IMG/VR virus record: IMGVR_UViG_3300028833_000069
Strand: one strand, 5' to 3'
Source: a virus
Taxonomy: Duplodnaviria > Heunggongvirae > Uroviricota > Caudoviricetes
DNA length: 64,000 nt
The position numbers and the translations under genes are program-made. Under the pieces are notes generated by a model that was not told the origin of the DNA, searched no databases, and saw nothing but the letters and a program-made list of their open reading frames with translations. Shown here piece after piece: positions 1-55,162 of the stretch (position 1 is the stretch's first letter; each line of letters starts with the position of its first letter).

Positions 1-353
1 TTAACACCAATTCTACCATTTATAGCAGCTAACAAAGTAGCATCATTGTATCTATGATGCATTTGCTCATTGATTTTATCTCTGTCATCTTGAGAAAGAT
101 ATTTACCATATTTCATGATAATCTCTCTCTTTGTCATCCATTTTCTAACAACATCTCTGTAACCATTTTTAATATACTTGCTCTTTGGATCTCTCTCAAT
201 AAATGTATTAAGAGGATCAGACACTTCAAGTCTAAAGCCATTACCAGATTTAGTCTTTACTACTTTATAATGTCCCTCACCACCAACAAGTAAATCAGTA
301 AGGAGTTCTGTTAATTGATTTTTTAAATCTATGTCTCTAGAATTGATAGCATA

Positions 354-845
354 CTAAACAATAGTTTGAGCTGCCATCTCATAATTAGATACATAATTTC
401 TATTTACAGAATCTTCAACATCCTTAAGTTCTTTATCAATAACTTCATCTTGTACAGGATCTTGAGGATCTTTACCCATTATTGTTCTGTAAATATGGTT
501 TTCAAGTTTAGAAATAGCAAGTTTATGGATTCTATTTTCTATTTCTAATTGCTTGTCTCTATAAATATTTGAAAGAGTTTTAGAATCTTTACAAGAAATT
601 TTAGGTTGAAGCTTCTGAGTAAGATACTCACCAACAATAGCATCAATGTGCTTTCTTGTTAATGGTACAAATTCTACAGAGGTTGGATTCTCAACTCCAT
701 AGCCTTTCTCATAAGCCTCATATTGTTTTTTGTCAAGAATTCCATGATAGTAATTATATGCTTTATAAAGAGACTTTCTCTCAATAACAAGTTCTGTAAT
801 TGCACTATCACACTCTTTCATTAAATACTTTTTATCTTTACTCAT
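354..845 (-). CDS. hypothetical late protein
   Basis: 163-aa ORF from the track. It terminates at TAG, so read-through may extend the C-terminus. Confidence 0.35.
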   Translation of the reverse strand: MSKDKKYLMKECDSAITELVIERKSLYKAYNYYHGILDKKQYEAYEKGYGVENPTSVEFVPLTRKHIDAIVGEYLTQKLQPKISCKDSKTLSNIYRDKQLEIENRIHKLAISKLENHIYRTIMGKDPQDPVQDEVIDKELKDVEDSVNRNYVSNYEMAAQTIV

Positions 846-1084
846 CTCTTATAAGTAATTTACAATTTTCTTGTTCATAAAAACCTCCCTGTGGATGTAA
901 CTTTACATTCCTACTAAAGATTTCATGTAACTTAGATTCTTTTAATTGTTCTGTTACAAATTTTAAAAACTCTTCATCAGTTTGGCACGAAATAACCCAA
1001 GCAAGTGGGTCATAAACCTAACTATGCAAATAAAACTTGCATGTATAAATATAGCCATCTCTTTCTGTGCCATCCTTTAAGACA

Positions 1085-3382
1085 TCAATCCTTTTTGGGA
1101 ACTTGCAACAGTAGAGCATTTCTACTAAACCACGAACCTGCTCTTCTAAACTGTTCATTTCTTTGTATAACTTGTTGTTTAGGAATTTTTCCAAAATGTT
1201 TATATCCATACTCATCAGTATACCAACCTATTTCTTCTTGTGAAGCTTGTGGAACAGATTGTTGTATAGTTTTACCTATCATATCCTCATTTGCAAGCAG
1301 ACACATACCTAAACCAGCTACCATATCAAATTTTCTCTTATTTGCATAAGAATATCTTAGTAACTCATTTAGTAATTCAGGAAATTCTATATACTCACAG
1401 TAGTCTGTAATATAATCATTTATGAGGTCTAACTGATGATTAATAATATCATCTGTAGCAGGAGTACCATACTGATTAGGATTTGCTTTTCTAATAGTTG
1501 GCATTGTTGCTCTAGGTCTTTTTAAAAGCAAATCTGCACATTTCTTTTCTTTAAAATATGTAACAAGACTTATTTTAGTTGCTTCTATTAACCCTTTACA
1601 GTTATACATTCTCATCAGCTTAATAGCATTGTCAAATGCAATTCTAATATCTTTTGGTCTTTCCTTGTAAATTGCTACAGGTTTTGGTGGGGTTATACCC
1701 ATCATTCTTTTAAAGATAATAATACAAAACTCTGAAACATCAGATTGTCCAGATGATGTAGATGTATCATTATCAATAGAGTCTATACCAGCAACATATA
1801 AATTAGAAGGAACTAAACCATTTGAATCTTTTACAGGAAGCTCTACTATTTTGATTTTACTTCTAGAATCATATTCAAACTCAGGAACAGAAAATCTATC
1901 AACCAAATGTGGATCATCCTTCATTGGTCTAAATCTTAAAGTAATTCCTTGAGGAGGTTCAAATAATTTATGAATTTCAATATTAGCTAACTATGTAGAA
2001 AGTCTTTCTTTATCAAATTTATTCTCACCTTCAAGAATAAGAGCTTCTTCAGGAGTAAAGCAGTACTCTGCTTTATACATCATTAAATCTTTAGGATCGT
2101 TAATAAGAAGAGCTCTTCTATCCATATAGTATTTTTTAGCTCTTTCTTCATCAACTACACCTCTGTTATCATAGCCTATTTCTCCTTTATCTTGCTCACC
2201 AAACCACATTGTATAAGCAGGTATAAAATATCCTGTATAGGCTACTTCTTGTGCTTCATTATATCTATTTTTATAAGGAAGAACTTTATATTTTACAGGA
2301 TTATAAAACATTCTGGTGAGGCCTTCCAAGTTAGGGCCAGAGTCACCACCAGTTCCCCAAGCATATCTGATACCAAATTTAATACCATTGATTTCAGTCA
2401 AAGCTTCTCCCTTAATCCATGAAGCAATAAGGTGTTTATTAGAACCTGCTTCTTCAAACAGAAGCTTATCAGTTCTATCACCTCTGACTTTATCTGGCAC
2501 ATCTGCTACTTTACCTTCAATTTCTGACATCCACCCAGATTCATTTCTTTCCTCATCTAAAACAGATGCTCTCTTGAAGTTAGCAGTATCAATCACCATT
2601 CTTTGGTGAGCAAACATTCCTTTTGTATGAGTATTAAGGAAGTTTAATTGTGTCCACATTTTATCTGTCAACTTGTCCACAAAGAAATCATTTGGGGCAG
2701 TTGCCATAACTCTAGTATTTTCAAAAGCTGTATATAAATTAACAGATATTGATGCAGAAATCTCACTAGCACCGACTCCTCTGCTCTTAAAAGCAACTAC
2801 ATCCTTTTTTAATTTAGCAGCTAATTCCATATAATGGAAATACTCATACTACTTTGCTATAAATGTTGGAAATGTTTCATTTCTACCAGTAGCAGCACCT
2901 TTAATACCAACAACACTTTTCATTCTGTAATAGTTTAACCAGAAGTAATTGTCACCAGTAATATGATACTTACCAACAGTCATTCCATTCATACATCTAT
3001 CAAGTTCTCTATAGCAAAGATCTGCAAACATTACAGTACCAGGTATAAGAGAAGTATATTCACCTGTCTCTTCATAAGTCCTAGCCATTTCTGTAAAGTC
3101 ATCAGGATTAAAATCTAATCCTTTATCTTTTGTAATAGGTCTGTAGCCAGTTAATTCATAAGATAATTCAGGATCAAAATATTCAATAGGATCTCCTATC
3201 TTTACATCCCATTCACTATCTTCTTCTTGCTTTTCTTCAAGAACAATCTATTCTTCTTTATCTTCTTGGGGGATGTCCATAATAAATGTTCTTTTCTTAG
3301 TCTTCTTAGCATCAAGAGCAGCCGCCTCTTTAGACAGCTGCTCCTTTAATGCTTCTCTTTCTTCTTTAGAAAGTTTAGCCAT
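1085..3382 (-). CDS. terL: terminase large subunit (one reading frame with three in-frame TAG codons)
   Basis: Track ORFs 2849..3088, 1991..2830 and 1085..1924 are in one frame, each separated only by TAG (at 3248-3250, 2849-2851, 1991-1993). Manual translation extends the frame to the ATG at 3380-3382. An ATPase-like KSRGVGAS / LLFEEAG motif and a nuclease-like VAGIDSIDNDTSTSSG Asp motif are present. The frame ends on TGA. Confidence 0.7.
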
Positions 3383-13240: not shown

Positions 13241-13243
13241 ATC

Positions 13244-13801
13244 TTATAATGTGTTATCTTTAATTATATTTTTAATAAGTTTTACATGTAATTCAGCAAT
13301 TCTTTGTCTTCCCTTTTCTGACATTATAAATCTACAGTCTTTTTCTGTATCCATGAAAAAATTCTCAGTTAAAATTGCAGGACATTTTGTATATTTAACT
13401 ATTTGATAGTTAGCTTCTTTATGCCCTCTACATTTCCATTCTGGAAAATCTTTTTTAAACATATCTACCATTCTGTTAGCAATAATGTCAGATTTAGTTT
13501 TACCAGTAGAAGTAAAAACTTCCCAACCAGTACCACCACCTGCATTTGCATGTATAGATATAAGGAAGCAATTTTTTTCAGCATTTGCTCTCCTACATCT
13601 CATATTAAGAGATATATCTTTATCTTCTGGAACTAAAATAGTATATGGTATTTTTTCAATATCTAACATTTTAGCTATCCTTTTTACTATATCTCTGGTA
13701 AACTCCCATTCAAATAACTAGGAGCTGTCATTCCAAATAGGGCTTCTTTTACCAGGTGTTTCCTGGCCATGCCCATTATCAAGTAATACTTTGTTAATCA
13801 T
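13244..13801 (-). CDS. N-acetylmuramoyl-L-alanine amidase (Amidase_3), one in-frame TAG
   Basis: N-terminus MINKVLLDNGHGQETPGKRSPIWNDSS[TAG]LFEWEFTRDIV.... Downstream lie LISIHANAGGGTGWEVF and PAILTENFFMD. TAG is at 13718-13720. Confidence 0.65.
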
Positions 13802-13956
13802 GATTGTGATCAATAGTAGATAAATAATTTAAACTGTCTTCAAAATCTAAGAACCATTGTTCATTAGTAGCTTCATTCTTTTCAACAGCAATAATAAAAA
13901 CATCATTTAGTAAAAGAATAGCTTTAGATACTTTTTTCAATAACCATTTCCTCATT

Positions 13957-14259
13957 TTAATTCTCTTTTGGAATATATAATGTGCAAACACATTTATCAT
14001 GTAGCCTATATTGCTCACATGGGCAATGTTTGTCTCCATCATCTTCATGATGGCAAGGACACTCACCTTTACATCTGTTAATGCCTCTTATAATACCTTG
14101 CACAATTTTCTCATTTGGATTTAAGATAAAACCTTCTCTGCAATTTTTACTTACATAATCTAAATCAATAGAATGATCTTGCATATCCTTTTCTTTTTTC
14201 ATGTTCAGCACCTTTATTTGATCTTTCAAAAGTTTCCTCAAAAAGGGTAGTAATATCAT
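13957..14259 (-). CDS. Cys/His-rich small protein (possible Zn-binding)
   Basis: CKGECPCHHEDDGDKHCPCEQY cluster. It overlaps track ORF 13794..14066 in another frame. Confidence 0.3.
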   Translation of the reverse strand: MILLPFLRKLLKDQIKVLNMKKEKDMQDHSIDLDYVSKNCREGFILNPNEKIVQGIIRGINRCKGECPCHHEDDGDKHCPCEQYRLHDKCVCTLYIPKEN

Positions 14260-14866
14260 CTAAAGATAGTTCTGGATTATTCCAAGCTGTTTTGAAATCA
14301 GAAACTGGAAATAATCTACCTTCCCTCTCTCTGTCACCATACCTTTCATCGGTATATTTTAAAATCTTTTCATACTCTCTTTTAAGAGTAGGATTGTTAG
14401 GATATTTATCATACTCAGCTTTTGCTCTAGCAAGTATATCCTTTTGAGCATTATATCCATTCATATATATGTCATGGCCACTATTTATAACCCATAACAT
14501 ATAATCTATTTCTGGATATTTACCAGTTTTATTAGATTTAAGCCAGTTATTATAATGTCTAGCTCTATCACCTAACATCTGGAACAAACCTGTTGCTGTA
14601 GAATCTGGATTAGCAGCTTTAATGTTAAAACTTGACTCTTGCATTATATTGCCCATTAAAGCAGCAGCATTTCTTTTACTAACTCCTTTCTCAAGTAAGT
14701 AGTTCCACAAATCTGACATTAAATCATATTGGCTTGGTGTAAAATATTGCTCATTACCAATACCTTTTAAATATGATTCAATATCAGCTTTTGCTTTAAA
14801 TGGCCCAGATTCTTTTATAGTACCACCAGGTTGCAATTTCTTAATTGGTATATAAAATCTACTCAT
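14165..14866 (-). CDS. lysozyme-like peptidoglycan hydrolase domain protein
   Basis: The NAAALMGNIMQESSFNIKAANPDSTATGLFQM motif is typical of phage tail/lysozyme-like PG hydrolase families. Confidence 0.5.
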   Translation of the reverse strand: MSRFYIPIKKLQPGGTIKESGPFKAKADIESYLKGIGNEQYFTPSQYDLMSDLWNYLLEKGVSKRNAAALMGNIMQESSFNIKAANPDSTATGLFQMLGDRARHYNNWLKSNKTGKYPEIDYMLWVINSGHDIYMNGYNAQKDILARAKAEYDKYPNNPTLKREYEKILKYTDERYGDREREGRLFPVSDFKTAWNNPELSLDDITTLFEETFERSNKGAEHEKRKGYARSFY

Positions 14867-14882
14867 ATCTATTATAATTTAG

Positions 14883-14972
14883 TAGCCCCTGAGGGACTCG
14901 AACCCTCACAACCTCCAACAGAAGGATATAACAGTTTTAGAGACTGGTGTACTGCCATTATACTAAGGGGCA
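14883..14972 (-). tRNA. suppressor tRNA with anticodon CUA (reads UAG), class II with long variable arm
   Basis: Anticodon stem CAGT/ACTG with a 7-nt loop CTCTAAA (U33, CUA at 34-36, A37). The anticodon is complementary to plus 14938-14940 tag. D-arm GTAT-AATGGCA-GTAC. Variable arm of about 23 nt with a CCTTC/GGAGG stem. T-arm GAGGG-TTCGAGT-CCCTC. Acceptor GCCCCT/AGGGGC with a 1:72 mismatch. Confidence 0.6.
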
Positions 14973-14996
14973 AAACAAGCTCTTCATAGAAGAGCC

Positions 14997-15167
14997 TTAT
15001 TCACAAACTTTATCAGCAATTGCAGTACCAACTAAAGCACCAAAAGCTCCAGCCATTACTGTAAACAAACCAACATACCAAGTAATTGCAAAACCAATTA
15101 AAGACAATGCTACATATCCTGTTCCACCAATTACTTTTCTCCAATTCTTTTTAAACCATTCTTTCAT
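14997..15167 (-). CDS. small membrane protein (56 aa), holin/spanin candidate
   Basis: Manual translation MKEWFKKNWRKVIGGTGYVALSLIGFAITWYVGLFTVMAGAFGALVGTAIADKVCE. It lies next to the PG hydrolases. Confidence 0.3.
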   Translation of the reverse strand: MKEWFKKNWRKVIGGTGYVALSLIGFAITWYVGLFTVMAGAFGALVGTAIADKVCE

Positions 15168-15289
15168 ACTTTTCTTTCTTAATTTCTTCTAACATTAAAC
15201 CTACTTTAAGATAAGCTTCATCTCTTATAGGATCTATACCATATACTCTGTTATAACAATACATTATACAGCTATCTAAAAATTCTAAC

Positions 15290-15433
15290 TCACTCATTTT
15301 CAATTAATCCCAACCCACTCAATCCTATAAAGAACATAGTAGGAATCATTACTAAACAAACTACTGACATACCAGCAAATATTAAACCAGCATATAAGCA
15401 GTAGCCAAACATTTTAAAATACTTCTTAATCAT
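15290..15433 (-). CDS. small membrane protein (47 aa), holin candidate
   Basis: Manual translation MIKKYFKMFGYCLYAGLIFAGMSVVCLVMIPTMFFIGLSGLGLIENE. Confidence 0.25.
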   Translation of the reverse strand: MIKKYFKMFGYCLYAGLIFAGMSVVCLVMIPTMFFIGLSGLGLIENE

Positions 15434-15660
15434 TTTTTCTTACTTGCTACTTTTAAAATATAATCTATTACTTCAGCTGCATATATAAACTTAACTCTTA
15501 ATACAATATGAGTAAGAGAACTTACAATAATTGTACCATTAACATAGTTAAATATTACTTTAGGCCATCCTTTTTGAGAATATGCCTGACTGAACTCTTT
15601 ATCTTCTCTAACATACCCAAACATTATGAGTAATTCCTTAAGATTATTTACATCATTCAT
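15430..15660 (-). CDS. hypothetical protein
   Basis: 76-aa track ORF. Confidence 0.3.
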   Translation of the reverse strand: MNDVNNLKELLIMFGYVREDKEFSQAYSQKGWPKVIFNYVNGTIIVSSLTHIVLRVKFIYAAEVIDYILKVASKKK

Positions 15661-15740
15661 ATTACATTTTGTTTAATTTTACAGTGCAAAGGTACTACTT
15701 TTTTAAGCCTAAAAAAACCCAAACTGTTAAAAACAAATTT

Positions 15741-15775
15741 AGCTCCCTCATTGTGTAATGAGAGAGCTAAATTTT
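15741..15775. terminator. hairpin terminator
   Basis: TTAGCTCCCTCATT-GTGTA-ATGAGAGAGCTAA followed by ATTTTTT, just downstream of the gene ending at 15780. Confidence 0.5.
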
Positions 15776-15779
15776 TTGA

Positions 15780-18575: not shown

Positions 18576-18688
18576 TCTCTGAGCCTATGCTTCCTTGATT
18601 GGGGGCATAGGCACTTATTTATTTAGTTAACTGAACAGTGTCCGCATTGGGCTGTTCTAATTATTTACCTTTTAAACTAGTTTTTGAT

Positions 18689-20039: not shown

Positions 20040-20108
20040 GTGAAATAGCATTTTTTATACCTATTTTGTCATTTTCAGGCAAGTGAAATGTCATTTTTTA
20101 TACCTATA
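20040..20108. repeat. two 25-bp direct repeats GTGAAAT(A/G)(G/T)CATTTTTTATACCTAT
   Basis: Copies at 20040-20064 and 20084-20108. A TTCTATACT tandem and the palindrome GCAGGATTTCATCCTGC (20138-20154) follow. The repeats lie upstream of the first plus-strand gene. Confidence 0.5.
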
Positions 20109-20243
20109 AATTCTATACTAATTCTATACTCAATGCAGCAGGATTTCATCCTGCCTCTAACTAATTAATTATCAATGAGTTATAACCAAAATCAATTTGT
20201 AGTAGTTCAGCATGATATTTAGCTGACTCCAGAACAGCTTTTA

Positions 20244-20909
20244 GTGTATGTTATTATTAAGAAAGGAATGGATGGTGCAAGTCACATTTCTTATGTTAAT
20301 ATAGGTACAATAATGGCAGTTTCAAACCTTAATAAGTCTACAATTCTTAAATATCTTGAAGTTATTGAAGAAAAAGGATATTTTAAGATTGTAAAATGTG
20401 GTGCTAATTTGCACTATAACTCTTATGTCTTTCCACAAGAACATAGAGATGAGAAATTTGAAAGATTTGCTTTTGAGATGATTGAGAGACCAGACTTAAC
20501 TCCAACAGAAAAAGCATATCTAATAGCTTTACAAAAGCATTTGTTCATAGATTTTGAATCTGGAGTAGGTAGAGTATCATACTCAGATTTGGAATTATGC
20601 CAAAAAATACAAGGTAGTAGAAAAAAACTTATGGAAGTTATGAAATCTCTAAAAGAAAAAGGTATTATTGATCAAGAAACAGAAATCTTTAAAAGAGATA
20701 AAGAAACTGGACTTAGAGTAAGACAAAGAGATTTTATACTTAATAACTATAATACTGCTGCTATAAAAAGAATTGAAAAGAAACTTGATGAGAAAGTAGA
20801 TAGAAAAGAAGTAGAAGATATAGTAAATAAAGCTGTATCTAAAGCTATTAGAAAACTTCTGTTGTCTAGTGCTGATATTCAGGATATTATTGCTGATGGT
20901 GAAGCTTGA
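20244..20909 (+). CDS. putative DNA-binding (HTH/winged-helix-like) regulator or replication-initiator-like protein
   Basis: 221 aa, basic, first gene of the plus-strand module downstream of the direct repeats. The assignment is weak. Confidence 0.3.
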   Translation: MYVIIKKGMDGASHISYVNIGTIMAVSNLNKSTILKYLEVIEEKGYFKIVKCGANLHYNSYVFPQEHRDEKFERFAFEMIERPDLTPTEKAYLIALQKHLFIDFESGVGRVSYSDLELCQKIQGSRKKLMEVMKSLKEKGIIDQETEIFKRDKETGLRVRQRDFILNNYNTAAIKRIEKKLDEKVDRKEVEDIVNKAVSKAIRKLLLSSADIQDIIADGEA

Positions 20910-21203: not shown

Positions 21204-21596
21204 ATGGCAATTGTTGCAAAAGTCCTTCTGACCATTAACTTGGAGGGAGGCCTCACTGGAGCAGTGAGCAATGCTGGTTCTAAGAAAGAGAAGCAGAGAA
21301 TGAAGAAAAGTACTTTCTGGAATGGGAAAGGACCTTTACCAAAAGGTTATTACCACTCTCAGGAGAAGTACAATGAGAGACCTCAGACAGACTGTATTCA
21401 GAAATTGAGTATCAGTGAGGACAACTACCGTGCTTATGTTGCACCTATTCCAAAAGAGAAAGGTGAGACAAAGCAGGAAGCAGCCAAGAGAGTTTGGTGG
21501 AACAAGTTAGAGCCCAAACAGAGGCTTGAGTTTCATCTTGGAGAGATTTGTCAGTCTCTTGGTGGTAAGAGTTATACTTATGAAGTGATTGACTGA
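21204..21596 (+). CDS. hypothetical protein
   Basis: Track ORF. Confidence 0.4.
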   Translation: MAIVAKVLLTINLEGGLTGAVSNAGSKKEKQRMKKSTFWNGKGPLPKGYYHSQEKYNERPQTDCIQKLSISEDNYRAYVAPIPKEKGETKQEAAKRVWWNKLEPKQRLEFHLGEICQSLGGKSYTYEVID

Positions 21597-21820
21597 TGAA
21601 ATCTGGTGAAACACTGCTTTGTAGACATGGCAGTATAAACCAGGTTATTCCCTTGCCTAAAAATCCTGTTGGGTATATGTCTACTATGCCTAAAGGTACA
21701 GTAATGGAGCATTGTACTCCTACTGGTAAGCAAGGAAGGAAAGCATTTCATAAGACTTACTGGACATCTAATGGAGATGGTACAGTAAGGATTGATAGGG
21801 AATATTCTAATTGTAAGTAG
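21596..21820 (+). CDS. hypothetical protein
   Basis: Track ORF, ATGA overlap with the upstream gene. Confidence 0.35.
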   Translation: MKSGETLLCRHGSINQVIPLPKNPVGYMSTMPKGTVMEHCTPTGKQGRKAFHKTYWTSNGDGTVRIDREYSNCK

Positions 21821-39893: not shown

Positions 39894-40717
39894 AATATAA
39901 TTTTAAAGCAAAAGAAACTACTGAAGGTATTATTGCATTCATAAAAGCATGGTTTGATCAAAATGGACCAGGATGTAATGCAGTAGTTGGTATTTCTGGA
40001 GGTAAAGATTCTACTATTGTAGCAAAACTTTGTGTTGAAGCTCTTGGTAGTGACAGAGTTATAGGAGTAATGCTTCCTAATAATCATCAACATGATTTAG
40101 ATGTTGCTAAAGAAGTATGTCAGTATTTAGGTATTAAAAGCCATTTAATTGACATTGCAAGCACTTTTGAAGATGTTAGATGTAGTATTGAGGATGAGAC
40201 TAAAAAGTCACTCTCAGAACAAGCTCTGACTAATCTTGCACCTAGAATCAGAATGACTTATCTTAGAGCATATGCACAGTGTTTTAATGGTAGACTGATC
40301 AACACTTCTAATCTTAGTGAAGATTGGGTTGGTTATGCAACTGTTGATGGTGACAGTGCAGGAGATATGTCTCCATTGTGTTTACTTACTGTACAAGAGG
40401 TAAAAGCAATTGGACATTATCTTGGTATACCTGATAAGTTTGTAGAGAAAGTTCCTGAAGATGGTCTTGTTGGTAAATCTGATGAAGACAATCTTGGTGT
40501 AACTTATGCTGCAATAGATAAGTGGATTAGAGAAGGTATTTGTGATGAAAAAGATCTTCAAGTAATTAACAAGAAATTCCAAGCAAATAAATTCAAGATT
40601 GTAAAGATGGCAGGTATGCCATGTTTCTGGCCTGAATATGATATGCTTTTTGAAGGAACTCCTGATAAGGAATTTGTTTCAAAACTTGGAATGGCACAAG
40701 ATCCTAGATTACAATGA
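39878..40717 (+). CDS. nadE: NH3-dependent NAD+ synthetase
   Basis: PP-loop VVGISGGKDSTIVAKL, then TRMTYLRAYA...GTSN-like and GDMSPLCLLTVQEV segments as in NadE. Confidence 0.7.
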   Translation: MARRMKYNFKAKETTEGIIAFIKAWFDQNGPGCNAVVGISGGKDSTIVAKLCVEALGSDRVIGVMLPNNHQHDLDVAKEVCQYLGIKSHLIDIASTFEDVRCSIEDETKKSLSEQALTNLAPRIRMTYLRAYAQCFNGRLINTSNLSEDWVGYATVDGDSAGDMSPLCLLTVQEVKAIGHYLGIPDKFVEKVPEDGLVGKSDEDNLGVTYAAIDKWIREGICDEKDLQVINKKFQANKFKIVKMAGMPCFWPEYDMLFEGTPDKEFVSKLGMAQDPRLQ

Positions 40718-41259
40718 AAAAAGTTCTTATTATAATTGATTGCCAAAATGACTTCTGTAAAGAAGGTGGTGCTCTTGCAAATAAAGAATGTATTGGAGCA
40801 GTAGATAATCTTTGTAAAGATTTTAACAAAATCTGGGAAAAAGATATGACTGTTCTTGTTACAAGAGATACTCATCAAAGGAAATCTTATTTTGGAACTG
40901 TTGAAGGTAAACATTTACCAATTCTTCATTGTGTTCAAGATAGTGCAGGTTGGTGTTTAAGAGATGATCTTGCTGCTAAGCTTGATACACTTGGAGTTAA
41001 TTACACATATATTGACAAACCTACATTTGGATTTGATAGTTGGAAAGGTATTATTGGTGTTGTACCTTTTGACGGAATGGAAATTCATATTGTTGGAGTT
41101 TGTACTGATATTTGTGTAGTAACAAATGCTTTACTTTTGAAGACAGCATATCCTAGTGCAGAAGTATATGTACATACAGATTATACTGCTGGTACATCTA
41201 TTGAAGCACATACAGCTGCTATTAAGACAATGAAAAGTTGTCACATTAACTGTATATGA
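40714..41259 (+). CDS. pncA: nicotinamidase (isochorismatase family)
   Basis: LIIIDCQNDFC...GG, TRDTH and the catalytic Cys segment VGVCTDICV align with PncA. Confidence 0.65.
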   Translation: MKKVLIIIDCQNDFCKEGGALANKECIGAVDNLCKDFNKIWEKDMTVLVTRDTHQRKSYFGTVEGKHLPILHCVQDSAGWCLRDDLAAKLDTLGVNYTYIDKPTFGFDSWKGIIGVVPFDGMEIHIVGVCTDICVVTNALLLKTAYPSAEVYVHTDYTAGTSIEAHTAAIKTMKSCHINCI

Positions 41260-41450
41260 GTGATAAAGTAAATAATGGTTGCACAGTGAGCTTAACACCA
41301 TTTATGCTAATTTTCATTCTATTCTTTATAGCTAAATGCTTTAAGTTAATAGAATGGAGTTGGTGGTGGGTGTTTAGCCCATTGTGGATACCTACACTTA
41401 TTCTTCTTGTAATATTTATAGTTTACATACTATTAAAATGCTTTCTGTAA
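41256..41450 (+). CDS. small membrane protein
   Basis: 64-aa hydrophobic ORF. Confidence 0.3.
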   Translation: MSDKVNNGCTVSLTPFMLIFILFFIAKCFKLIEWSWWWVFSPLWIPTLILLVIFIVYILLKCFL

Positions 41451-42271
41451 ATAACATACCTGTAAAGGTTGAGCATTTCCAAGATAATACACAAAAAATT
41501 AACTTACCTGAATTTGAAAGTAATGTTTTCAATATTAAATGGAAATATTCAAATGATGAAGAGTTAGTTACACTTGTATATATTTGTGGTTATCTTAGAG
41601 ATAATTATCAAGATTGTACAATAACCTTGGAAATGTTATATGTTCCTAATGCCAGAATGGATAGAGTAGAAGAAAGAGGTGATGTATTTACCTTAAAGTA
41701 TTTCTGCAATATTATTAACAGTTTACAATTTGAAAGTGTAACAGTATTTGATACTCATTCAAAAGTAACTGATGCTCTGGTAGATAGGATGAACAAAATA
41801 TCTACTGAAGAACTATTACAAAAAGTACTTGACATTATACATGTTGGCTATTTTGATAATAAGTTTAAAAGTATGACTATAGTATTCCCTGATAGAGGTG
41901 CTTATGATAGATACAGTACTCTTGAAATTCTTAAACCTTTTAGAAAGATTATAGGAAATAAGTCAAGAGACTGGAAAACAGGCACTTTGCAAGATCAGGA
42001 GTTATATGGAGTAGATAATTTAGAAACAGGAGTTCCTGTACTAATTATTGATGACATATTATCTTCTGGTGGAACTGTTTGTAAAACAATTGCAAATATT
42101 AGGGAAGTTGTTAACTGCCCAATTTATGTATATGTTTCTCACTGTGAAAATAAGCTTATAGAAAATGATACAGAAAATTGGGAATACATACAGAAAAATG
42201 TAAATAAGTTATACACAACTAATGGGATTTACTCATGTGATTGTGAAAAAATTCAAAAAATTGTATGGTAA
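41438..42271 (+). CDS. PRPP-synthetase-like phosphoribosyltransferase (divergent Prs; alternatively an ADP-ribose pyrophosphokinase-like enzyme)
   Basis: YVPNARMDRVEERGD (compare Prs PYFGYARQDR), FDTHS (compare DLHA) and the PRPP-binding loop VLIIDDILSSGGT. The track ORF begins at 41384. Confidence 0.55.
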   Translation: MLSVNNIPVKVEHFQDNTQKINLPEFESNVFNIKWKYSNDEELVTLVYICGYLRDNYQDCTITLEMLYVPNARMDRVEERGDVFTLKYFCNIINSLQFESVTVFDTHSKVTDALVDRMNKISTEELLQKVLDIIHVGYFDNKFKSMTIVFPDRGAYDRYSTLEILKPFRKIIGNKSRDWKTGTLQDQELYGVDNLETGVPVLIIDDILSSGGTVCKTIANIREVVNCPIYVYVSHCENKLIENDTENWEYIQKNVNKLYTTNGIYSCDCEKIQKIVW

Positions 42272-43446
42272 ATGTAAATACTGCAAGTATGTTGGATAAT
42301 GATCTCTATAAGTTTAGCATGAGCTATGCTTATATGAAATTATTTCCAGAAGCAGAAGGTACATTTGAATTCTGTGATAGAAATAAAACAGTTTATACAA
42401 GTGAGTTTGTTCAAGCTCTTTCCTCAGAGCTGCATAAACTTGCTGAAAGAATGTTACTGTCAACAGAAAGAAGTTGGTGTGTTAAACACATACAGTATAT
42501 TCCTGAGTGGTATTGGGAATGGTTAGAATCTTTCTATTTCAATCCTAATCTTATTAAGGTCTCTCTTACTAAGGAAGGAATGTTGAATATAGCAGTAACT
42601 GATAAACTGTATAAGGTAACTTTGTATGAAGTACCAATTCTATACACAGTAGCAGAACTCTGCTATAAATTTTCTGGTACAGAATTGTCTCATGAGCAAT
42701 TCAAAGAGATAATTAGTAAGACAGAGAGTAAATGTAAGATTGCTGATGAAGCAGAAATGTTTTTCTCTGAATTTGGTACTAGAAGAAGATTCAGTTATGA
42801 AGTACAAGACATTGTAATTAAAACTTGTAAGAGTTGTTCTCACTGTGTTGGTACTTCTAATGTACATTTTGCAATGAAATATGACATGAAGCCTATTGGT
42901 ACTGTTGCACATGAGTGGGTTATGTTCCACGGTGCAATGTATGGCTACAATGAGGCTAATTACATGGCATATAAGAATTGGGTAAAGGTTTATGATGGTA
43001 ATCTTGGTATTGCCTTAACTGATACCTATACCTCTGATGTCTTTTTCAAGAATTTTTCTTTACAACATGCAAAATTGTTTGATGGTATAAGACAAGATTC
43101 TGGTGATGAAAAAGAATTTGTAGAGAAAGCTTTAGTAAAGTATAACGAGTTGGGAATCAATCCACTTACTAAAACTATTGTTTTCTCAAATGCTCTTGAT
43201 TTCCCAAAAGCTGCAACTATAGCAGAATACTGTAAAGGAAAGATAAAAGCTTCCTTTGGTATTGGTACAAATCTGACTAATGATATTGATGGTATAAAAC
43301 CACAAAATATTGTTATGAAACTTATGCAATGCAGAATGAACAACAAACAAAGTTGGATGCATTGTGTAAAAATTTCAGATGATAAAGGTAAGGTAATGGG
43401 AAATCCTGATGAAATTAAAACTGCCTTTTACAAATTAGGTCTATGA
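42265..43446 (+). CDS. pncB: nicotinate phosphoribosyltransferase
   Basis: Collinear with E. coli PncB: LDNDLYKFSM, FGTRRRFSYEVQD, VGTSN, GTVAHEW, LGIALTD, RQDSGDE, VFSNALD, SFGIGT, KPQNIVMKL. Confidence 0.75.
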   Translation: MVNVNTASMLDNDLYKFSMSYAYMKLFPEAEGTFEFCDRNKTVYTSEFVQALSSELHKLAERMLLSTERSWCVKHIQYIPEWYWEWLESFYFNPNLIKVSLTKEGMLNIAVTDKLYKVTLYEVPILYTVAELCYKFSGTELSHEQFKEIISKTESKCKIADEAEMFFSEFGTRRRFSYEVQDIVIKTCKSCSHCVGTSNVHFAMKYDMKPIGTVAHEWVMFHGAMYGYNEANYMAYKNWVKVYDGNLGIALTDTYTSDVFFKNFSLQHAKLFDGIRQDSGDEKEFVEKALVKYNELGINPLTKTIVFSNALDFPKAATIAEYCKGKIKASFGIGTNLTNDIDGIKPQNIVMKLMQCRMNNKQSWMHCVKISDDKGKVMGNPDEIKTAFYKLGL

Positions 43447-43928
43447 AAAATTTTCCAGTAGATTATGAAGGAAAAACCTACTGGATTAGTAGGTCTGTAG
43501 CTGTTGCAGGTTTCATCTTTAGAAAAGATAATAATGGTAATTTACTAGTACTTGCTAACAAAAGAGGACCAGGTTGTCCTGATAATGTTGGCAAGTGGGT
43601 ATGCCCATGTGGTTATCTTGACTATGGAGAAACCCTCAAGCAAGCTATTGTAAGAGAAATCCATGAAGAAACAGGAGTAACTATCCCAATAAGTATATTG
43701 AGACTGGTTAGAATTGATGATGTACCAGAAGGTAGACAAAATGTAACAATTGAGTTTATTGCTGATGCAGGTGTCTTAACTCCTGAATGTGTTGCTTTAT
43801 CTAAAGAATTCTGTGAAAAGGATGAAGTAGATGAAGTTATGTGGATGCCAGTAGCTAACATAGATGAGTATGAATGGGCATTTAATCATGATAAACTTAT
43901 TAAAGATTTTCAATGTTACCTAAAGTAG
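43443..43928 (+). CDS. Nudix hydrolase
   Basis: Nudix box GYLDYGETLKQAIVREIHEETGV. The gene ends on TAG at 43926-43928. Confidence 0.65.
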   Translation: MKNFPVDYEGKTYWISRSVAVAGFIFRKDNNGNLLVLANKRGPGCPDNVGKWVCPCGYLDYGETLKQAIVREIHEETGVTIPISILRLVRIDDVPEGRQNVTIEFIADAGVLTPECVALSKEFCEKDEVDEVMWMPVANIDEYEWAFNHDKLIKDFQCYLK

Positions 43929-44503
43929 CTCACCTATTTTTAACAGCAAAATGTTCAAATAATTGTCCAAAATGCTGTAACAACAATTACACTGTAGATG
44001 AGATTCCTTTCTTAACAGAAGAGGAATTCTCTACAGTGGAAACTGTTTGTTTAACAGGAGGAGAACCATTCCTTCTTGACAACCTAGAAGAAATAGTAAA
44101 TGTTATAAGACCACATGTCAGAAACATTTATGTATACACTTCAGGTACTGAATTATTATCTTATCTAGGAAAGCATGAGCTTCCCTTCATAAACGGCATT
44201 TCCTTTAGTCCTAAGAGCAGAAAAGATTGGGATAGTATAACTACACTAACCAAAAATATTATGCTCTTAAAAAGGATTTCTGAAAAGGATAATAGATTGT
44301 ATATATTCTTAAAACAAGAAGATAGAGCAAACTATACATTGGATCGTTTTGGTCCAAGACTAAGAACAATTGAGTATTTAGCAGATGCACTGAATGCTAA
44401 AATGTATTTTAGGACTTGGCTAGATGAGATAACTTCTCCTGATGGAGAAATCTTTAGAAGAATTAACTTAGAAGACATGAAGAAATGGAAAAAGAAAGAA
44501 TAG
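43913..44503 (+). CDS. small radical SAM protein (activase/QueE-like size)
   Basis: CSNNCPKC cluster and LTGGEPFL. 196 aa. Confidence 0.5.
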   Translation: MLPKVAHLFLTAKCSNNCPKCCNNNYTVDEIPFLTEEEFSTVETVCLTGGEPFLLDNLEEIVNVIRPHVRNIYVYTSGTELLSYLGKHELPFINGISFSPKSRKDWDSITTLTKNIMLLKRISEKDNRLYIFLKQEDRANYTLDRFGPRLRTIEYLADALNAKMYFRTWLDEITSPDGEIFRRINLEDMKKWKKKE

Positions 44504-45108
44504 CAATTTTTGGAGGTTCTTTTAATCCAATTCATAAGGGACATCTTGACATAATTAGCGCTCTTACTAATAGGATGTGCTTTATGGGTTCTTATTATTC
44601 AGAAGTTTGGGTAAGTGTTACACCACAAAACCCATTAAAACCTGAATCAGGTAATTTCTGGGATAGATTTAAGATGGTAAAAGATGCTCTAAATGATAGA
44701 TTCACTGGAAATGCTACATTTAAATATGTTGTTCCTACTTTTATCCAAGGTTGTACAAATCTAATCTTTATGTCTAATACTCTTAGAACTTTGAAAGAAG
44801 TTTATCCAGAGTATGAGTTTGAGCTTGTAATAGGAGCTGATTGTTTAGAGAGTTTTAATAAATGGCATGATTACCAGTATATTATTGATAATTTTGATAT
44901 TGTTATTATTGATCGAGAAGGTTATGTAACAGAAGTACCTAGTTATTTTAATAAAAGTAGAGTAACTCATTTAAAACTTAATAATACAATTAGTTCCACA
45001 CAAGTAAGAAATCTTATTAAAGAGAATAATCCTGAATGGGAAAAATTAGTTGTATCTTCAACAGTAAAAACAATTAAAGATAAAAAGCTATATGAATATA
45101 GTAAATAA
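44485..45108 (+). CDS. nadD: nicotinate-nucleotide adenylyltransferase
   Basis: IAIFGGSFNPIHKGHL is the (H/T)xGH nucleotidyltransferase motif at a NadD-like position. 207 aa. Confidence 0.65.
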   Translation: MEKERIAIFGGSFNPIHKGHLDIISALTNRMCFMGSYYSEVWVSVTPQNPLKPESGNFWDRFKMVKDALNDRFTGNATFKYVVPTFIQGCTNLIFMSNTLRTLKEVYPEYEFELVIGADCLESFNKWHDYQYIIDNFDIVIIDREGYVTEVPSYFNKSRVTHLKLNNTISSTQVRNLIKENNPEWEKLVVSSTVKTIKDKKLYEYSK

Positions 45109-45589
45109 AACAGGTAATTTATTAGATGCTACTACAGACATTATTATGCATCAAGTCAATGATGCAGGTGTAATGGGAAGTGGTGTTGCAGCAGCAATTG
45201 CTCATAAGTGGCCTTATGTGCAACAACAATACACAGTTGCTCAACAGCAAGGGCATCTTAAATTAGGAGAAATCATTATGTCTTGCACAAGTGAGTTTCC
45301 TGATAGTAAATGTCACCCATTAGTAGCTAATTTATGTGCTCAAGATTTGTATCAGAGAGAACACTCTTTCTTGAGTACAGGTATTCCTACAAGCTATGAT
45401 GCTTTGTGGATGTGTCTAACTAAACTTGCAAGATATTGTAAAGAGAATGGTTTTAGTACTATTGCTATGCCATATCTTATGAGTTCTTGTAGAGGTGGTG
45501 CTAATTGGAATGTAGTAATTACTATGGTTCAAGAAGCTTTTTATGATTTAGAAGGTACAATCGAGGTTTGGCAGTTGCCAGCCCACTAA
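45092..45589 (+). CDS. macro domain (ADP-ribose binding/processing) protein
   Basis: GNLLDATTDIIMHQVNDAGVMGSGVAAAI matches the macro-domain signature. Confidence 0.6.
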   Translation: MNIVNKTGNLLDATTDIIMHQVNDAGVMGSGVAAAIAHKWPYVQQQYTVAQQQGHLKLGEIIMSCTSEFPDSKCHPLVANLCAQDLYQREHSFLSTGIPTSYDALWMCLTKLARYCKENGFSTIAMPYLMSSCRGGANWNVVITMVQEAFYDLEGTIEVWQLPAH

Positions 45590-47263: not shown

Positions 47264-47334
47264 TGTCCTTTAGTATAATGGTATTACACCTGATTTTGGT
47301 TCAGAGAATAGGGGTTCGATTCCTCTAAGGACAA
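47264..47334 (+). tRNA. tRNA-Gln(UUG)
   Basis: Perfect acceptor TGTCCTT/AAGGACA, D-arm GTAT-AATGGTA-TTAC, anticodon loop TTTTGGT, T-arm AGGGG-TTCGATT-CCTCT. Confidence 0.55.
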
Positions 47335-47349
47335 CTAAAATGTTTACAT

Positions 47350-48652: not shown

Positions 48653-48728
48653 GACATCTTAGCTCAGTTGGTATTAGAGCACCTCACCTTTAATGAGGGG
48701 GTCCTGGGTTCAAATCCCAGAGGTGTCA
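48653..48728 (+). tRNA. tRNA-Lys(UUU) with unusual C at position 33
   Basis: Acceptor GACATCT/AGGTGTC, D-arm GCTC-AGTTGGTATTA-GAGC, perfect anticodon stem CCTCA/TGAGG, loop CCTTTAA, T-arm CTGGG-TTCAAAT-CCCAG. Confidence 0.55.
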
Positions 48729-48745
48729 CTAAAAATAAATATAAA

Positions 48746-48916
48746 ATGAGTAGTGTTGATGTGATTACAGAAGTAGTAATGTATATTATTAACAATTTAA
48801 GTATTAAATTAGAACAAACAGGTAGAAATAGTATAACTGCTAAACTTTTATTAAAAGATAAAGTAATAAGTGAAGATACTGTTAATTATGAACCTAGACA
48901 AACTTTATTTTGTTAG
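48746..48916 (+). CDS. hypothetical small protein
   Basis: Track ORF 48668..48916 overlaps tRNA-Lys. The likely start is MSSVDV at 48746. Confidence 0.3.
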   Translation: MSSVDVITEVVMYIINNLSIKLEQTGRNSITAKLLLKDKVISEDTVNYEPRQTLFC

Positions 48917-50737: not shown

Positions 50738-50974
50738 ATGTCAGAATTAGGATTAGATATGCTTGATGGTTGTCTAAAAGTATTTACATGGATGACTGGA
50801 ATTTGCATAGTTATCATGATATTAGGATTAAGCATTTGGGAATTAGAAGTGCCTAAAGACCATTGTATCAAGTGTGGTAGAGTTATCTGCAATGAAAACT
50901 ATTGCCCTGATTGTGGTACACCAACAGATAGTGTTGATACATATAACTATTGGAATAACCCAAATAGAAAATAG
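50738..50974 (+). CDS. small membrane protein with CxxC...CxxC zinc ribbon
   Basis: CIKCGRVICNENYCPDCG. Confidence 0.35.
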   Translation: MSELGLDMLDGCLKVFTWMTGICIVIMILGLSIWELEVPKDHCIKCGRVICNENYCPDCGTPTDSVDTYNYWNNPNRK

Positions 50975-53360: not shown

Positions 53361-53771
53361 ATGAAAAGTGAACAATATAATAGTCATGTCCGAGATTTAT
53401 TGTATGCCTTAATTACTTCTGCATGTTCAAATTGGAGAAATTCTAAGTATCTTCATGTTATGTATCATGGTAAAAAAGGAGTTCAACAATATGATAACAT
53501 TATTCAAAAAGTTAAAGATATTGAACACAGAGGTGTTGATAATCTAAAAGAAGATGAACTTTATTTTTTACTTTCAAACTTGAATGGTGGTGTTCATTAT
53601 CATGGACAATATATAAACAGACACCTTTTTGCAGAAAGATTATATTTTAAGTTACAGAAAGTAAGGTCAGGAGTTTTTAACAAAAATCCTTTAATACATA
53701 GATTAACAAATCTTAAATGGCTTTGGTTATATGTAGGAGGAATAAAGGATTTAAATACTTGTAAAGATTAG
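53361..53771 (+). CDS. hypothetical protein
   Basis: Track ORF. Confidence 0.4.
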   Translation: MKSEQYNSHVRDLLYALITSACSNWRNSKYLHVMYHGKKGVQQYDNIIQKVKDIEHRGVDNLKEDELYFLLSNLNGGVHYHGQYINRHLFAERLYFKLQKVRSGVFNKNPLIHRLTNLKWLWLYVGGIKDLNTCKD

Positions 53772-54712: not shown

Positions 54713-55162
54713 ATGCCAATACAAGAACATGTTAGATTATGTATTTTAAACTATCCTAGTATATTTCGTAATGCACTAGATGTTTATGACCATTTATTCT
54801 ATACTATTGGTAATGGTTATGAATGGAAAAATGGTGAATTAGTACATATTGGAGGAAATACTTTTGAAGCTCATACTATTGCAGAAGCAATTGCTAATGA
54901 GGTTGATAAAAATATAAAGTTTGCAAGAAGAGAAAAAGATTTTCTTAATGGTGTCTATCAATTTTCAGTAGATTATATGTGTGAAAATATACATACAATT
55001 ATGGAAGTAGATAAAAGAGTTAATGATTTTTCTCCATCTGCTGATTTTAGTTTTTATCCTATTAGTCAATATTCAAAATGCTTAAATATACCAAAGGATA
55101 TTAAACCTGATTGGTTAGAAGCAATTAAAAAACTTAATGAAATAAAAGAAAAGTTATGTTAG
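54713..55162 (+). CDS. hypothetical protein
   Basis: Track ORF. Confidence 0.4.
   Translation: MPIQEHVRLCILNYPSIFRNALDVYDHLFYTIGNGYEWKNGELVHIGGNTFEAHTIAEAIANEVDKNIKFARREKDFLNGVYQFSVDYMCENIHTIMEVDKRVNDFSPSADFSFYPISQYSKCLNIPKDIKPDWLEAIKKLNEIKEKLC

What the first reader, a model, noticed from the sequence alone, without database searches (positions are those of the whole stretch)
43443..43928. TAG is used as a real stop in the early module, implying a temporal dual code
The Nudix gene ends on TAG (43926-43928). The downstream gene starts by overlap, so TAG functions as a terminator there. Late genes need TAG read-through. This fits the model in which the suppressor tRNA is produced only later in infection, so that recoding gates late-gene expression. 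I found no in-frame TAG in any early gene that I translated.
Basis: partly seen in the sequence, partly recalled or inferred. Interest (0 to 1): 0.55.

Follow-up and report, generated by a model that had tools for sequence, protein, structure and literature searches.

The report
Block-wise amber recoding in crAss-like phage
This gut-type phage reads TAG as glutamine in its virion and lysis genes but places TAG only at gene ends in its metabolic gene block, a two-code layout already described for crAss-like phages, with one notable exception in a replication-initiator-like gene.

Summary
The Nudix gene (43443-43928) has an intact Nudix domain and ends on TAG. Orthologues end at the same aligned position on TGA or TAA, so the TAG marks the true C-terminus.

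The wider pattern is also real:
- The minus-strand virion/lysis block (1-18055) has 20 in-frame TAGs in 10 of 26 genes. They align with CAA/CAG or Gln in relatives.
- The plus-strand block (18.1-64 kb, 87 genes) has TAG at the ends of seven genes and internally in one (Fisher p = 1e-10).

The exception contradicts "no in-frame TAG in early genes". A DnaD-like HTH gene (20175-20909) carries TAG at codon 16. Every relative found has a TAG at codon 11 or 16.

The tRNA(CUA) lies inside the lysis cassette, behind a terminator-like hairpin. That fits late expression, but timing cannot be shown from sequence. Internal and terminal TAGs share the same context, and read-through of Nudix would add only five residues.

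The temporal two-code model is already published for crAss-like phages (Yutin 2021; Borges 2021), so this is a new example, not a new mechanism. ARAGORN's "ochre suppressor" is probably a tRNA-Lys variant.

The parts
43443..43928 (+). Nudix hydrolase CDS. TAG stop at 43926-43928; next in-frame stop TAA at 43941-43943.
   Evidence: Pfam NUDIX E = 4.8e-16. Sequence. Orthologues stop on TGA or TAA at the same aligned position.
43913..44503 (+). Radical-SAM-like CDS overlapping the Nudix end by 16 nt. It also ends on TAG (44501-44503); the backup TAA is 17 codons later.
   Evidence: PHROG radical SAM hits. The L004 orthologue has the same start and a TAA stop at the aligned position.
14882..14972 (-). 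Amber suppressor tRNA, anticodon CUA, 91 nt, with a 20-nt insertion forming a long variable arm. Its D-arm is nearly identical to the phage tRNA-Gln(UUG) at 47264-47335.
   Evidence: ARAGORN. Rfam tRNA 52.1 bits with anticodon loop CUCUAAA. Alignment to tRNA-Gln. 91/91 identical in L025.
14973..14996 (-). Terminator-like hairpin GGCTCTTC-TAT-GAAGAGCT followed by TGTTT, abutting the 5' end of the suppressor tRNA.
   Evidence: Read. Conserved in L025. Not called by the terminator scan.
13244..15774 (-). Lysis cassette, in order: strong terminator 15735-15774; possible -7 box TACCTTTG; four small genes (15430-15660, 15290-15433, 15151-15297, 14997-15167, two of them membrane-like); hairpin; tRNA(CUA); lysozyme-like gene 14165-14866; two small genes; Amidase_3 gene 13244-13801 with in-frame TAG at 13718-13720.
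   Evidence: (Pfam Phage_lysozyme2 and Amidase_3 on the L025 orthologues).
1085..3382 (-). Large terminase with in-frame TAGs at 3248-3250, 2849-2851 and 1991-1993.
   Evidence: tblastn to Crassvirales terminases covers 98% of the query, which starts downstream of the first TAG and spans the second and third. The second and third TAGs align with CAA in L001 and with Gln in MT835470, L003 and cr55_1; the first TAG is also TAG in L001.
3..848 (-). Portal protein, N-terminal part (runs off the window), with in-frame TAG at 354-356.
   Evidence: TAG aligns with CAG in L001, and a nearby CAA aligns with TAG in L001.
20175..20909 (+). HTH_36 / DnaD-like (replication-initiator-like) gene. It is the only plus-block gene with an internal TAG (20220-20222, codon 16).
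   Evidence: Pfam HTH_36 starts at the residue right after the TAG. The conserved N-terminus spans the TAG in homologues. Relatives carry TAG at codon 11 or 16. PHROG DnaD-like/replication initiation, E = 4e-6.
21596..21820 (+). Plus-block gene ending on TAG (21818-21820).
   Evidence: The TAG is conserved in L025.
48746..48916 (+). Small plus-block ORF ending on TAG (48914-48916).
50738..50974 (+). Plus-block gene ending on TAG (50972-50974); TAA two codons later.
53361..53771 (+). Plus-block gene ending on TAG (53769-53771).
54713..55162 (+). Plus-block gene ending on TAG (55160-55162).
37216..37650 (+). YqeY-like protein, TAG-free, next to RtcB. A candidate helper for charging tRNA-Gln-type tRNAs; this role is inferred.
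   Evidence: Pfam YqeY E = 5.6e-32. PHROG 'tRNA amidotransferase' E = 6e-20. The YqeY domain of Deinococcus GlnRS is described in PMC1865053 (abstract only seen).

Best explanation
The window comes from a large crAss-like phage (Crassvirales, Zeta-type traits) that uses two coding regimes in two divergent gene blocks.

In the minus-strand virion and lysis block, TAG is a glutamine codon, decoded by the phage's own tRNA(CUA). In the plus-strand auxiliary and metabolic block (NAD+ salvage including Nudix, RtcB, YqeY, tRNAs, tmRNA), genes are written so that the host's standard code suffices. There TAG occurs only at natural C-termini, where RF1 can terminate, and where later read-through would add only 2-18 residues before a TAA or TGA.

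The suppressor tRNA gene sits inside the lysis cassette, behind a terminator-like hairpin and 15 nt ahead of the lysozyme-like gene. It is therefore most likely made with, and only when, that late operon is transcribed. This would delay full-length TerL, portal, tail and amidase proteins until then.

One plus-block gene, a DnaD-like HTH protein next to the probable origin, carries a conserved amber codon near its 5' end. It is probably gated by the same tRNA.

Shown: the codon distribution, TAG = Gln, the tRNA and its position, and the orthologue stops. Inferred: the timing of tRNA production and its regulatory consequence.
For: Phage identity:
- TerL matches Crassvirales terminases, best hit 46% identity.
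- A relative's contig is 169 kb.
- The window has a group I intron and 24 tRNAs, as described for the Zeta group.

TAG distribution:
- 20 in-frame TAGs lie in 10 of 26 minus-block genes, spread along the genes.
- The plus block has 1 internal and 7 terminal TAGs in 87 genes. Fisher p = 1.2e-10, with equal TAG trinucleotide density in both blocks.

TAG = Gln:
- In the confidently called late genes, 11 aligned sites pair TAG in one genome with CAA or CAG in L001, 10 with TAG in the window and 1 with TAG in L001. Two more such sites are seen against L025.
- Gln sits at the second and third TerL TAG sites in relatives with 30-51% identity.

tRNA(CUA):
- It is confirmed by ARAGORN and Infernal and is 100% conserved in L025.
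- It is flanked by a holin-like gene plus hairpin on one side and a lysozyme-like gene on the other.

Terminal TAGs interchange with TAA or TGA in orthologues: Nudix, the radical-SAM-like gene and the PRPP-synthetase-like gene.

Internal and terminal TAGs show no difference in cis context, so any distinction must act in trans.

Bacteroidetes-type -7 boxes (TAnnTTTG) lie 23-34 nt upstream of three late-block operon heads and in none of 20 plus-block gaps.

The published model matches.
Against: - No expression data exist; timing is inferred only from gene position.
- The hairpin in front of the tRNA could be a processing site rather than a terminator, and the scan tool did not call it.
- The plus block is called 'early' only by gene content. 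Most of its genes have no annotation.
- The HTH/DnaD-like gene in that block needs read-through. If it is an early replication initiator, the suppressor must be active before the late phase.
- Backup stops after terminal TAGs are no closer than expected (Mann-Whitney p = 0.15), so there is no sign of selection for them.
- The tRNA has an unusual long variable arm. Charging with Gln is inferred from substitutions, not shown.
- Only 64 kb of a genome of about 169 kb was examined.
Confidence: 0.7

Rival explanations
1. One code throughout. The suppressor is present whenever phage genes are translated, and TAG is read as Gln everywhere. Plus-block 'terminal' TAGs are simply read through to the next TAA or TGA. 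The lack of internal TAGs there would reflect history (recently acquired standard-code genes) or stronger selection against an inefficiently decoded codon, not timing.
For: - Every terminal TAG is followed by TAA or TGA within 2-18 codons.
- The +4 context of internal and terminal TAGs is the same.
- One plus-block gene does require read-through.
- Zeta phages with apparently idle suppressors, and with TAG followed by TAA, have been reported.
Against: - Terminal TAGs coincide exactly with orthologues' TAA or TGA stops.
- The first TAG in each of those seven plus-block genes lies in the last 20% of the code-15 ORF, which is very unlikely for a sense codon.
- Backup distances are not shorter than background.
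- The depletion is strong (p = 1e-10) despite equal TAG trinucleotide density.
Confidence: 0.15
2. The block-wise recoding is real, but its main role is not a timer. It might keep lysis and virion genes silent outside a productive infection (carrier state, or uptake by other cells or phages). It might damage host translation by read-through of host TAG stops. Or it might be a neutral result of TAG rarity plus acquisition of a suppressor.
For: - These ideas are discussed for Zeta phages and in the recoding literature.
- Only 10 of 26 late-block genes carry a TAG, and GroEL, GroES and the exonuclease-like gene have none. Gating of the block is therefore incomplete.
Against: - The tRNA sits within the lysis cassette.
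- Amber codons persist in TerL, portal and amidase, and near the 5' end of the HTH gene, across relatives. This argues for a selected regulatory coupling.
- Nothing here excludes additional roles.
Confidence: 0.12
3. The pattern is a chance or compositional effect, or comes from mis-called genes, so TAG is an ordinary stop everywhere.
For: None of weight. AT-rich genomes contain many short spurious ORFs.
Against: - TerL homology runs across the second and third TAGs at 98% query coverage.
- Coding potential is positive on both sides of the TAGs.
- TAG interchanges with Gln codons in relatives.
- A dedicated tRNA(CUA) is present.
Confidence: 0.01

Closest known systems
Amber-reassigned (code 15) crAss-like phages whose recoding is confined to late genes (Yutin et al. 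2021, PMC7886860), and the temporal code-switch model of Borges et al. (bioRxiv 10.1101/2021.08.26.457843)
   Same: - TAG = Gln in the terminase, portal and lysis genes.
- A phage-encoded tRNA(CUA).
- A separate block compatible with the standard code.
- Lysis genes recoded, with the suppressor gene placed at the lysis cassette.
- Low GC content, many tRNAs and a group I intron.
   Different: - The suppressor has a class-II-like long variable arm and sits directly behind a terminator-like hairpin.
- A replication-initiator-like gene in the standard-code block carries a conserved 5'-proximal amber codon.
- No release-factor gene was seen in the part of the window annotated here.
Zeta crAss-like phages such as Lera (PMC12386605)
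   Same: - Genome of about 170 kb in the relative, 20-30 tRNAs, suppressor tRNAs, mobile introns.
- TAG at ORF ends followed shortly by another stop.
   Different: Lera uses TGA recoding and its tRNA(CUA) appears idle. Here the amber suppressor is clearly in use: 20 internal TAGs in 18 kb.
Theta (HDV-like) ribozyme-associated suppressor tRNAs of recoded gut phages (PMC10879173)
   Same: A suppressor tRNA proposed to trigger the code switch for lysis and structural genes.
   Different: No HDV-like ribozyme was found next to this tRNA. Only 15 nt separate it from the next gene. Its 5' side carries a hairpin plus T-tract instead.
Mgcod-type 'multiple genetic code' phage annotation (bioRxiv 10.1101/2022.06.29.495998; abstract only seen)
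   Same: The genome is divided into blocks that use different stop-codon sets.
   Different: That work is an annotation tool. It makes no claim about TAG terminators aligning with orthologue stops.

Membership tests
Block-wise amber-recoded (code 11 / code 15) phage | In-frame TAGs inside conserved virion or lysis genes, at positions where homologues have Gln | tested here: met
   TerL, portal, amidase and other genes. TAG aligns with CAA/CAG in L001 and L025. Gln is present at the TerL sites in distant relatives.
Block-wise amber-recoded (code 11 / code 15) phage | Phage-encoded tRNA with anticodon CUA | tested here: met
   14882-14972(-): ARAGORN and Infernal at 52.1 bits with loop CUCUAAA.
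Block-wise amber-recoded (code 11 / code 15) phage | A genome block translatable with the standard code (no internal TAG) | tested here: met
   86 of 87 plus-block genes have no internal TAG. The exception is the HTH gene 20175-20909.
Block-wise amber-recoded (code 11 / code 15) phage | TAG acts as a terminator in the standard-code block | tested here: inconclusive
   Terminal TAGs align with TAA or TGA stops of orthologues. Actual termination versus a short read-through cannot be told from DNA.
Block-wise amber-recoded (code 11 / code 15) phage | The suppressor is expressed later than the standard-code genes (temporal switch) | not testable with these tools
   There are only positional hints: the tRNA lies inside the lysis cassette behind a hairpin, and the two blocks differ in -7-box usage.
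Block-wise amber-recoded (code 11 / code 15) phage | The host uses the standard code | not tested
   The host is unknown. Crassvirales hosts are Bacteroidota according to the literature.
Crassvirales (Zeta-like) | TerL and portal homologous to crAss-like phages, a genome of 145-192 kb, introns, many tRNAs | tested here: met
   TerL tblastn gives 137 records, mostly crAss-like. The relative's contig is 169,151 bp. A group I intron scores 87.7 bits. No phylogeny was built, so the assignment to a group is provisional.
NUDIX hydrolase | Nudix fold and Nudix box GX5EX7REUXEEXGU | tested here: met
   Pfam PF00293 E = 4.8e-16 over the full profile. The box GYLDYGE…RE..EE.GV can be read in the translation.
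Theta-ribozyme-linked suppressor tRNA | A minimal HDV-like ribozyme within about 5 nt of the tRNA end | tested here: not met
   An Rfam E-value scan of 14700-15060 finds only the tRNA. Whether Rfam 15 holds a dedicated theta-ribozyme model was not checked.
Ochre (TAA) suppressor tRNA | Anticodon UUA in the canonical register, and in-frame TAA codons in genes | tested here: not met
   Infernal places the loop of 48653-48729 as CCUUUAA, meaning anticodon UUU with C33. The closest tRNA is a tRNA-Lys(UUU) in L017. Every same-frame TAA junction has an ATG 1-7 codons downstream.

The most novel reading that the evidence does not exclude
The suppressor tRNA may do more than license late structural proteins. 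The amber codon kept within the first 16 codons of the DnaD-like HTH gene beside the probable origin looks like a selected translational gate. It sits at codon 11 in one allele group and codon 16 in the other, and a paralogue in L025 has one at codon 9. If so, the appearance of tRNA(CUA) would also flip a replication or transcription switch.

Together with three other features, this would amount to a dedicated, self-reinforcing code-switch module rather than passive recoding. Those features are the tRNA's class-II-like variable arm, its position behind a terminator-like hairpin in the lysis operon, and a TAG-free YqeY protein that could help charge it.
Probability: 0.25. Interest if true: 0.6.

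Novelty: new member of a known kind. Interest (0 to 1): 0.3.

Why it matters
The window is a clean, quantified example of a phage genome written in two codes. This matters for annotation, because standard-code gene calling splits TerL, portal and lysis genes into fragments.

It also gives concrete handles for testing the still unproven timing model. These are a suppressor gene embedded in the lysis operon, a pair of predicted Nudix C-termini, and a single amber-gated regulator-like gene. The mechanism itself is not new.

Tried and rejected
- **Megablast** of 18 kb and 15 kb of the window against GenBank phages found no near relatives.
- **One search was flawed.** I pasted a protein whose residues after position 77 were not from the window. 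Only the weak L024 hit to residues 21-73 is valid, and I did not use it. The search was redone with the correct sequence.
- **Relatives of the suppressor tRNA.** A degenerate DNA pattern found nothing in IMG/VR. The neighbouring lysozyme-like protein as query also found nothing. L025 was eventually reached through the HTH protein.
- **Sigma-70 promoter scan** of 13-21 kb: 41 sites against 36 expected, so uninformative.
- **Full Bacteroidetes promoter pattern** TTTG-N17-21-TAnnTTTG: 7 matches against 4.2 expected, not significant.
- **k-mer search for a shared plus-block promoter** found only A-rich words.
- **Theta/HDV-like ribozyme** next to the tRNA: none found.
- **Ochre suppressor:** rejected.
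- **Selection for close backup stops** after terminal TAGs: not significant (p = 0.15).
- **Termination versus read-through context (+4 base):** no difference.
- **tRNA host for the group I intron:** none found. The host turned out to be a tmRNA gene.
- **Excluded from the counts as doubtful:** ORF 7289-7726 (5 TAGs, mixed orthologue codons including TAA) and ORF 10147-10437.
Full report
**What the window is.** The window has about 31% GC and carries 24 tRNA genes. Genes diverge from a strand switch near 18.1 kb, which is also the minimum of cumulative GC skew.

The minus-strand block (1-18055) encodes:
- the start of a portal protein;
- a large terminase;
- GroES and GroEL;
- an exonuclease-like protein;
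- an array of 11 tRNAs;
- endolysin-like, lysozyme-like and Amidase_3 proteins;
- tail-like proteins.

The terminase matches Crassvirales terminases over 98% of a query spanning its second and third in-frame TAGs. The best hit is MT835470 at 46% identity, and RefSeq Crassvirales hits are 26-30%. No near-identical phage is in GenBank.

IMG/VR and Logan assemblies hold closer relatives:
- L001 and L004 come from a 169,151-bp contig and are 70-90% identical in DNA.
- L025 comes from a 144,677-bp contig and is 86-94% identical.

The size of the relative's contig, the tRNA load and a group I intron match the Zeta group of crAss-like phages described by Yutin et al..

**The observation.** The Nudix CDS runs from 43443 to the TAG at 43926-43928. 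It matches Pfam NUDIX over the whole profile (E = 4.8e-16), and the domain ends five residues before the TAG. It belongs to a tightly coupled NAD+ gene cluster: NadE, an isochorismatase-fold protein, a PRPP-synthetase-like protein, a NAPRTase-like protein, Nudix, a radical-SAM-like protein, an NMNAT-like protein and a Macro-domain protein. The next gene starts at ATG 43913, inside the Nudix gene, and this start is conserved in L004.

**Does TAG terminate there?** The overlap alone proves nothing. The useful evidence is comparative.
- Among 20 Nudix orthologues, L009, L011 and L012 end …NFYLK-TGA and L014 ends …CYFK-TAA. These are exactly aligned with the window's …CYLK-TAG. L004 ends on TGA four codons earlier.
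- The next gene also ends on TAG (44501-44503), and its L004 orthologue ends on TAA at the same aligned residue.
- Conversely, the PRPP-synthetase-like gene ends on TAA here and on TAG in L004.

Terminal TAG therefore behaves in evolution as one of three interchangeable stop codons. Read-through would add only Q-L-T-Y-F to Nudix before TAA 43941-43943. DNA alone cannot show which product is made.

**The module pattern.** I called genes with TAA and TGA as the only stops and a codon-usage score, then curated the starts.

| Block | Genes | Codons | Internal TAGs | Terminal TAGs |
|---|---|---|---|---|
| Minus strand (1-18055) | 26 | 5175 | 20, in 10 genes | none, since ORFs were called with TAG as sense |
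| Plus strand (18.1-64 kb) | 87 | 12241 | 1 | 7 genes |

In the minus block the TAGs are spread along the genes, and coding potential is positive on both sides of those tested (both flanks at least 25 codons). In the plus block the terminal TAGs each lie 2-18 codons before the next TAA or TGA.

- Against Gln codons the contrast is 20:151 versus 1:418 (Fisher p = 1.2e-10).
- At the late-block rate, 47 internal TAGs would be expected in the plus block.
- TAG trinucleotides over all frames are equally dense in the two blocks. The difference therefore lies in the reading frame, not in base composition.

**What TAG encodes.** In the confidently called late genes (portal, TerL, 3981-4391, 8638-9294, 10730-11620, 12845-13240), 11 aligned sites pair TAG in one genome with CAA or CAG in L001. 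Ten have the TAG in the window and one has it in L001. Against L025 there are two more such sites, one in 10730-11620 and one in the HTH gene. The second and third TerL TAG sites carry Gln in MT835470 and L003, and the third also in cr55_1. TAG is therefore Gln, genetic code 15, as metaproteomics has shown for other crAss-like phages (PMC9523058; abstract only seen).

**The suppressor.** tRNA(CUA) at 14882-14972 (minus strand) is a sound tRNA at 52.1 bits with loop CUCUAAA.
- Its acceptor and D-arm closely resemble the phage's own tRNA-Gln(UUG).
- It carries a 20-nt insertion that forms a long variable arm (CCUUC-UGUU-GGAGG), which is unusual for a Gln-type tRNA.
- It is 91/91 identical in L025, while the flanks are about 97% identical.

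It lies inside what looks like the lysis cassette. After a strong terminator (15735-15774) come a TACCTTTG box, four small genes (two with membrane-like sequences), then a hairpin plus T-tract (14973-14996) that touches the tRNA's first base. The tRNA follows, and 15 nt later the lysozyme-like gene. Further on is the amidase gene with TAG at codon 28. There is no room for a separate promoter directly in front of the tRNA, and no HDV-like theta ribozyme beside it.

This placement fits co-expression with lysis genes, possibly throttled by the hairpin. It resembles the 'code change module upstream of the lysis cassette' of Borges et al.. It remains inference.

**Promoters.** The sigma-70 scan was uninformative. 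The Bacteroidetes -7 box TAnnTTTG lies 23-34 nt upstream of three late-block operon heads (10730, 15660, 17977) and in none of about 20 plus-block gaps. This hints that the two blocks use different promoter types, but the numbers are small. I found no shared plus-block motif.

**The exception.** The gene at 20175-20909 has TAG at codon 16: MSYNQNQFVVVQHDI-TAG-LTPEQLLVY….
- The Pfam HTH_36 match begins at the residue right after the TAG.
- The next ATG is 15 codons further on, which would truncate the domain.
- Homologues conserve the sequence on both sides of the TAG.
- In DNA, every relative recovered has an in-frame TAG. It is at codon 16 in L029 and L031, and at codon 11 in L025, L030 and L032/L033. 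Each allele has a sense codon where the other has TAG.
- A paralogue in L025 has TAG at codon 9.

The protein weakly matches DnaD-like helicase loaders and replication initiators (E = 4e-6 to 1e-3). It sits beside about 900 nt of non-coding DNA with repeats, near the GC-skew minimum.

So the statement 'no in-frame TAG in early genes' does not hold for the whole block. Either this gene is deliberately gated by the suppressor, or the suppressor is needed earlier than 'late'.

**Checks that did not discriminate.**
- The base after TAG does not differ between internal and terminal TAGs.
- Backup stops are no closer than after TAA or TGA stops (median 6 versus 15 codons, p = 0.15, n = 7).

**The second 'suppressor'.** ARAGORN calls 48653-48729 a tRNA with anticodon UUA. 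Three results argue against an ochre suppressor:
- Infernal aligns it in the canonical register with stem CCUCA/UGAGG and loop CCUUUAA, which gives anticodon UUU with C at position 33.
- Its closest relative is a tRNA-Lys(UUU) in L017.
- All same-frame TAA junctions have an ATG within 1-7 codons.

It is most likely a tRNA-Lys variant.

**Comparison with what is known.** Recoding confined to late genes in crAss-like phages, TAG = Gln, suppressor tRNAs and code changes over short evolutionary distances are described by Yutin et al. 2021. The idea that early genes use the host code and a later suppressor unlocks structural and lysis genes is the central model of Borges et al.. TAG at ORF ends followed by another stop has been noted in Zeta phages. 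The finding is therefore a new instance of a known arrangement. The temporal step is as unproven here as in the literature I could read.

**Verdict.** Novelty: a new member of a known kind. Interest: 0.3.

Noticed in passing
window 34345-35616 (+); L004:1194-1570: A phage-encoded tmRNA gene is split by a group I intron. L004 has an intact tmRNA (Rfam RF00023, 93.2 bits; tag ASRRRPVRLVA*). The window copy aligns to tmRNA positions 1-348 up to about 34706 and resumes at 35594-35614. The insertion, in the T-loop region, is about 885 nt. It contains Rfam Intron_gpI (34686-34926, 87.7 bits) and a minus-strand ORF 35066-35509 with no family match.
   Followed up: partly
window 20175-20909 (+), TAG at 20220-20222; L025, L029-L033: This is the only internal TAG in the plus-strand block. 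It lies at codon 16 of a DnaD-like HTH_36 gene. All relatives found keep a TAG at codon 11 or 16, and an L025 paralogue has one at codon 9.
   Followed up: yes
window 14882-14972 (-): The amber suppressor tRNA has a 20-nt class-II-like variable arm, yet its D-arm and acceptor are of tRNA-Gln type and TAG reads as Gln. It is 100% identical in L025. A suppressor in L022 is of ordinary length, 73 nt.
   Followed up: partly
window 48653-48729 (+): ARAGORN calls this 'tRNA-Stop(tta)'. In the canonical register Infernal reads the anticodon as UUU, with C33 in place of the near-universal U33. It is most similar to a tRNA-Lys(UUU). There is no sign of TAA read-through.
   Followed up: yes
window 39890-45589 (+): A translationally coupled NAD+ gene cluster: NadE, an isochorismatase-fold protein (nicotinamidase-like), PRPP-synthetase-like, NAPRTase-like, Nudix, radical-SAM-like, cytidylyltransferase-like (NMNAT-like) and Macro domain. 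From my own knowledge it resembles phage NAD+ reconstitution pathways that counter NAD-depleting defences; this was not tested.
   Followed up: no
window 35936-37650 (+): An RtcB RNA ligase (E = 6e-64) is followed by a YqeY-like protein (E = 5.6e-32). Both are free of TAG codons. They may serve tRNA repair and tRNA-Gln charging functions relevant to the code switch.
   Followed up: no
window 18056-20170: The divergent region at the GC-skew minimum has about 40% GC against 31% elsewhere, and about 900 nt with no ORF. A 21-nt motif CTNCTAAWTTNRTTTTTRRTA occurs three times, at 18072, 18669 and 19936 only. 27-nt direct repeats lie at 20038-20064 and 20081-20107, with an inverted copy at 19967-19991, just upstream of the HTH gene. 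This may be an origin or operator region.
   Followed up: partly
L021:10001-10453: A more distant relative has an in-frame TGA at the conserved Trp of the Nudix motif (REY-TGA-ISRS). In that TGA-recoded phage the Nudix gene itself needs read-through, so in relatives recoding is not always excluded from this module.
   Followed up: no
window 4643-6431 (-): GroES-like and GroEL-like genes, as judged from their translations, lie in the virion block. Neither contains a TAG.
   Followed up: no
window 10730, 15660, 17977 (gene starts): Bacteroidetes-type -7 boxes (TAnnTTTG) lie 23-34 nt upstream of three late-block operon heads. None occur in about 20 plus-block intergenic gaps, which hints at different promoter types for the two blocks.
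   Followed up: partly
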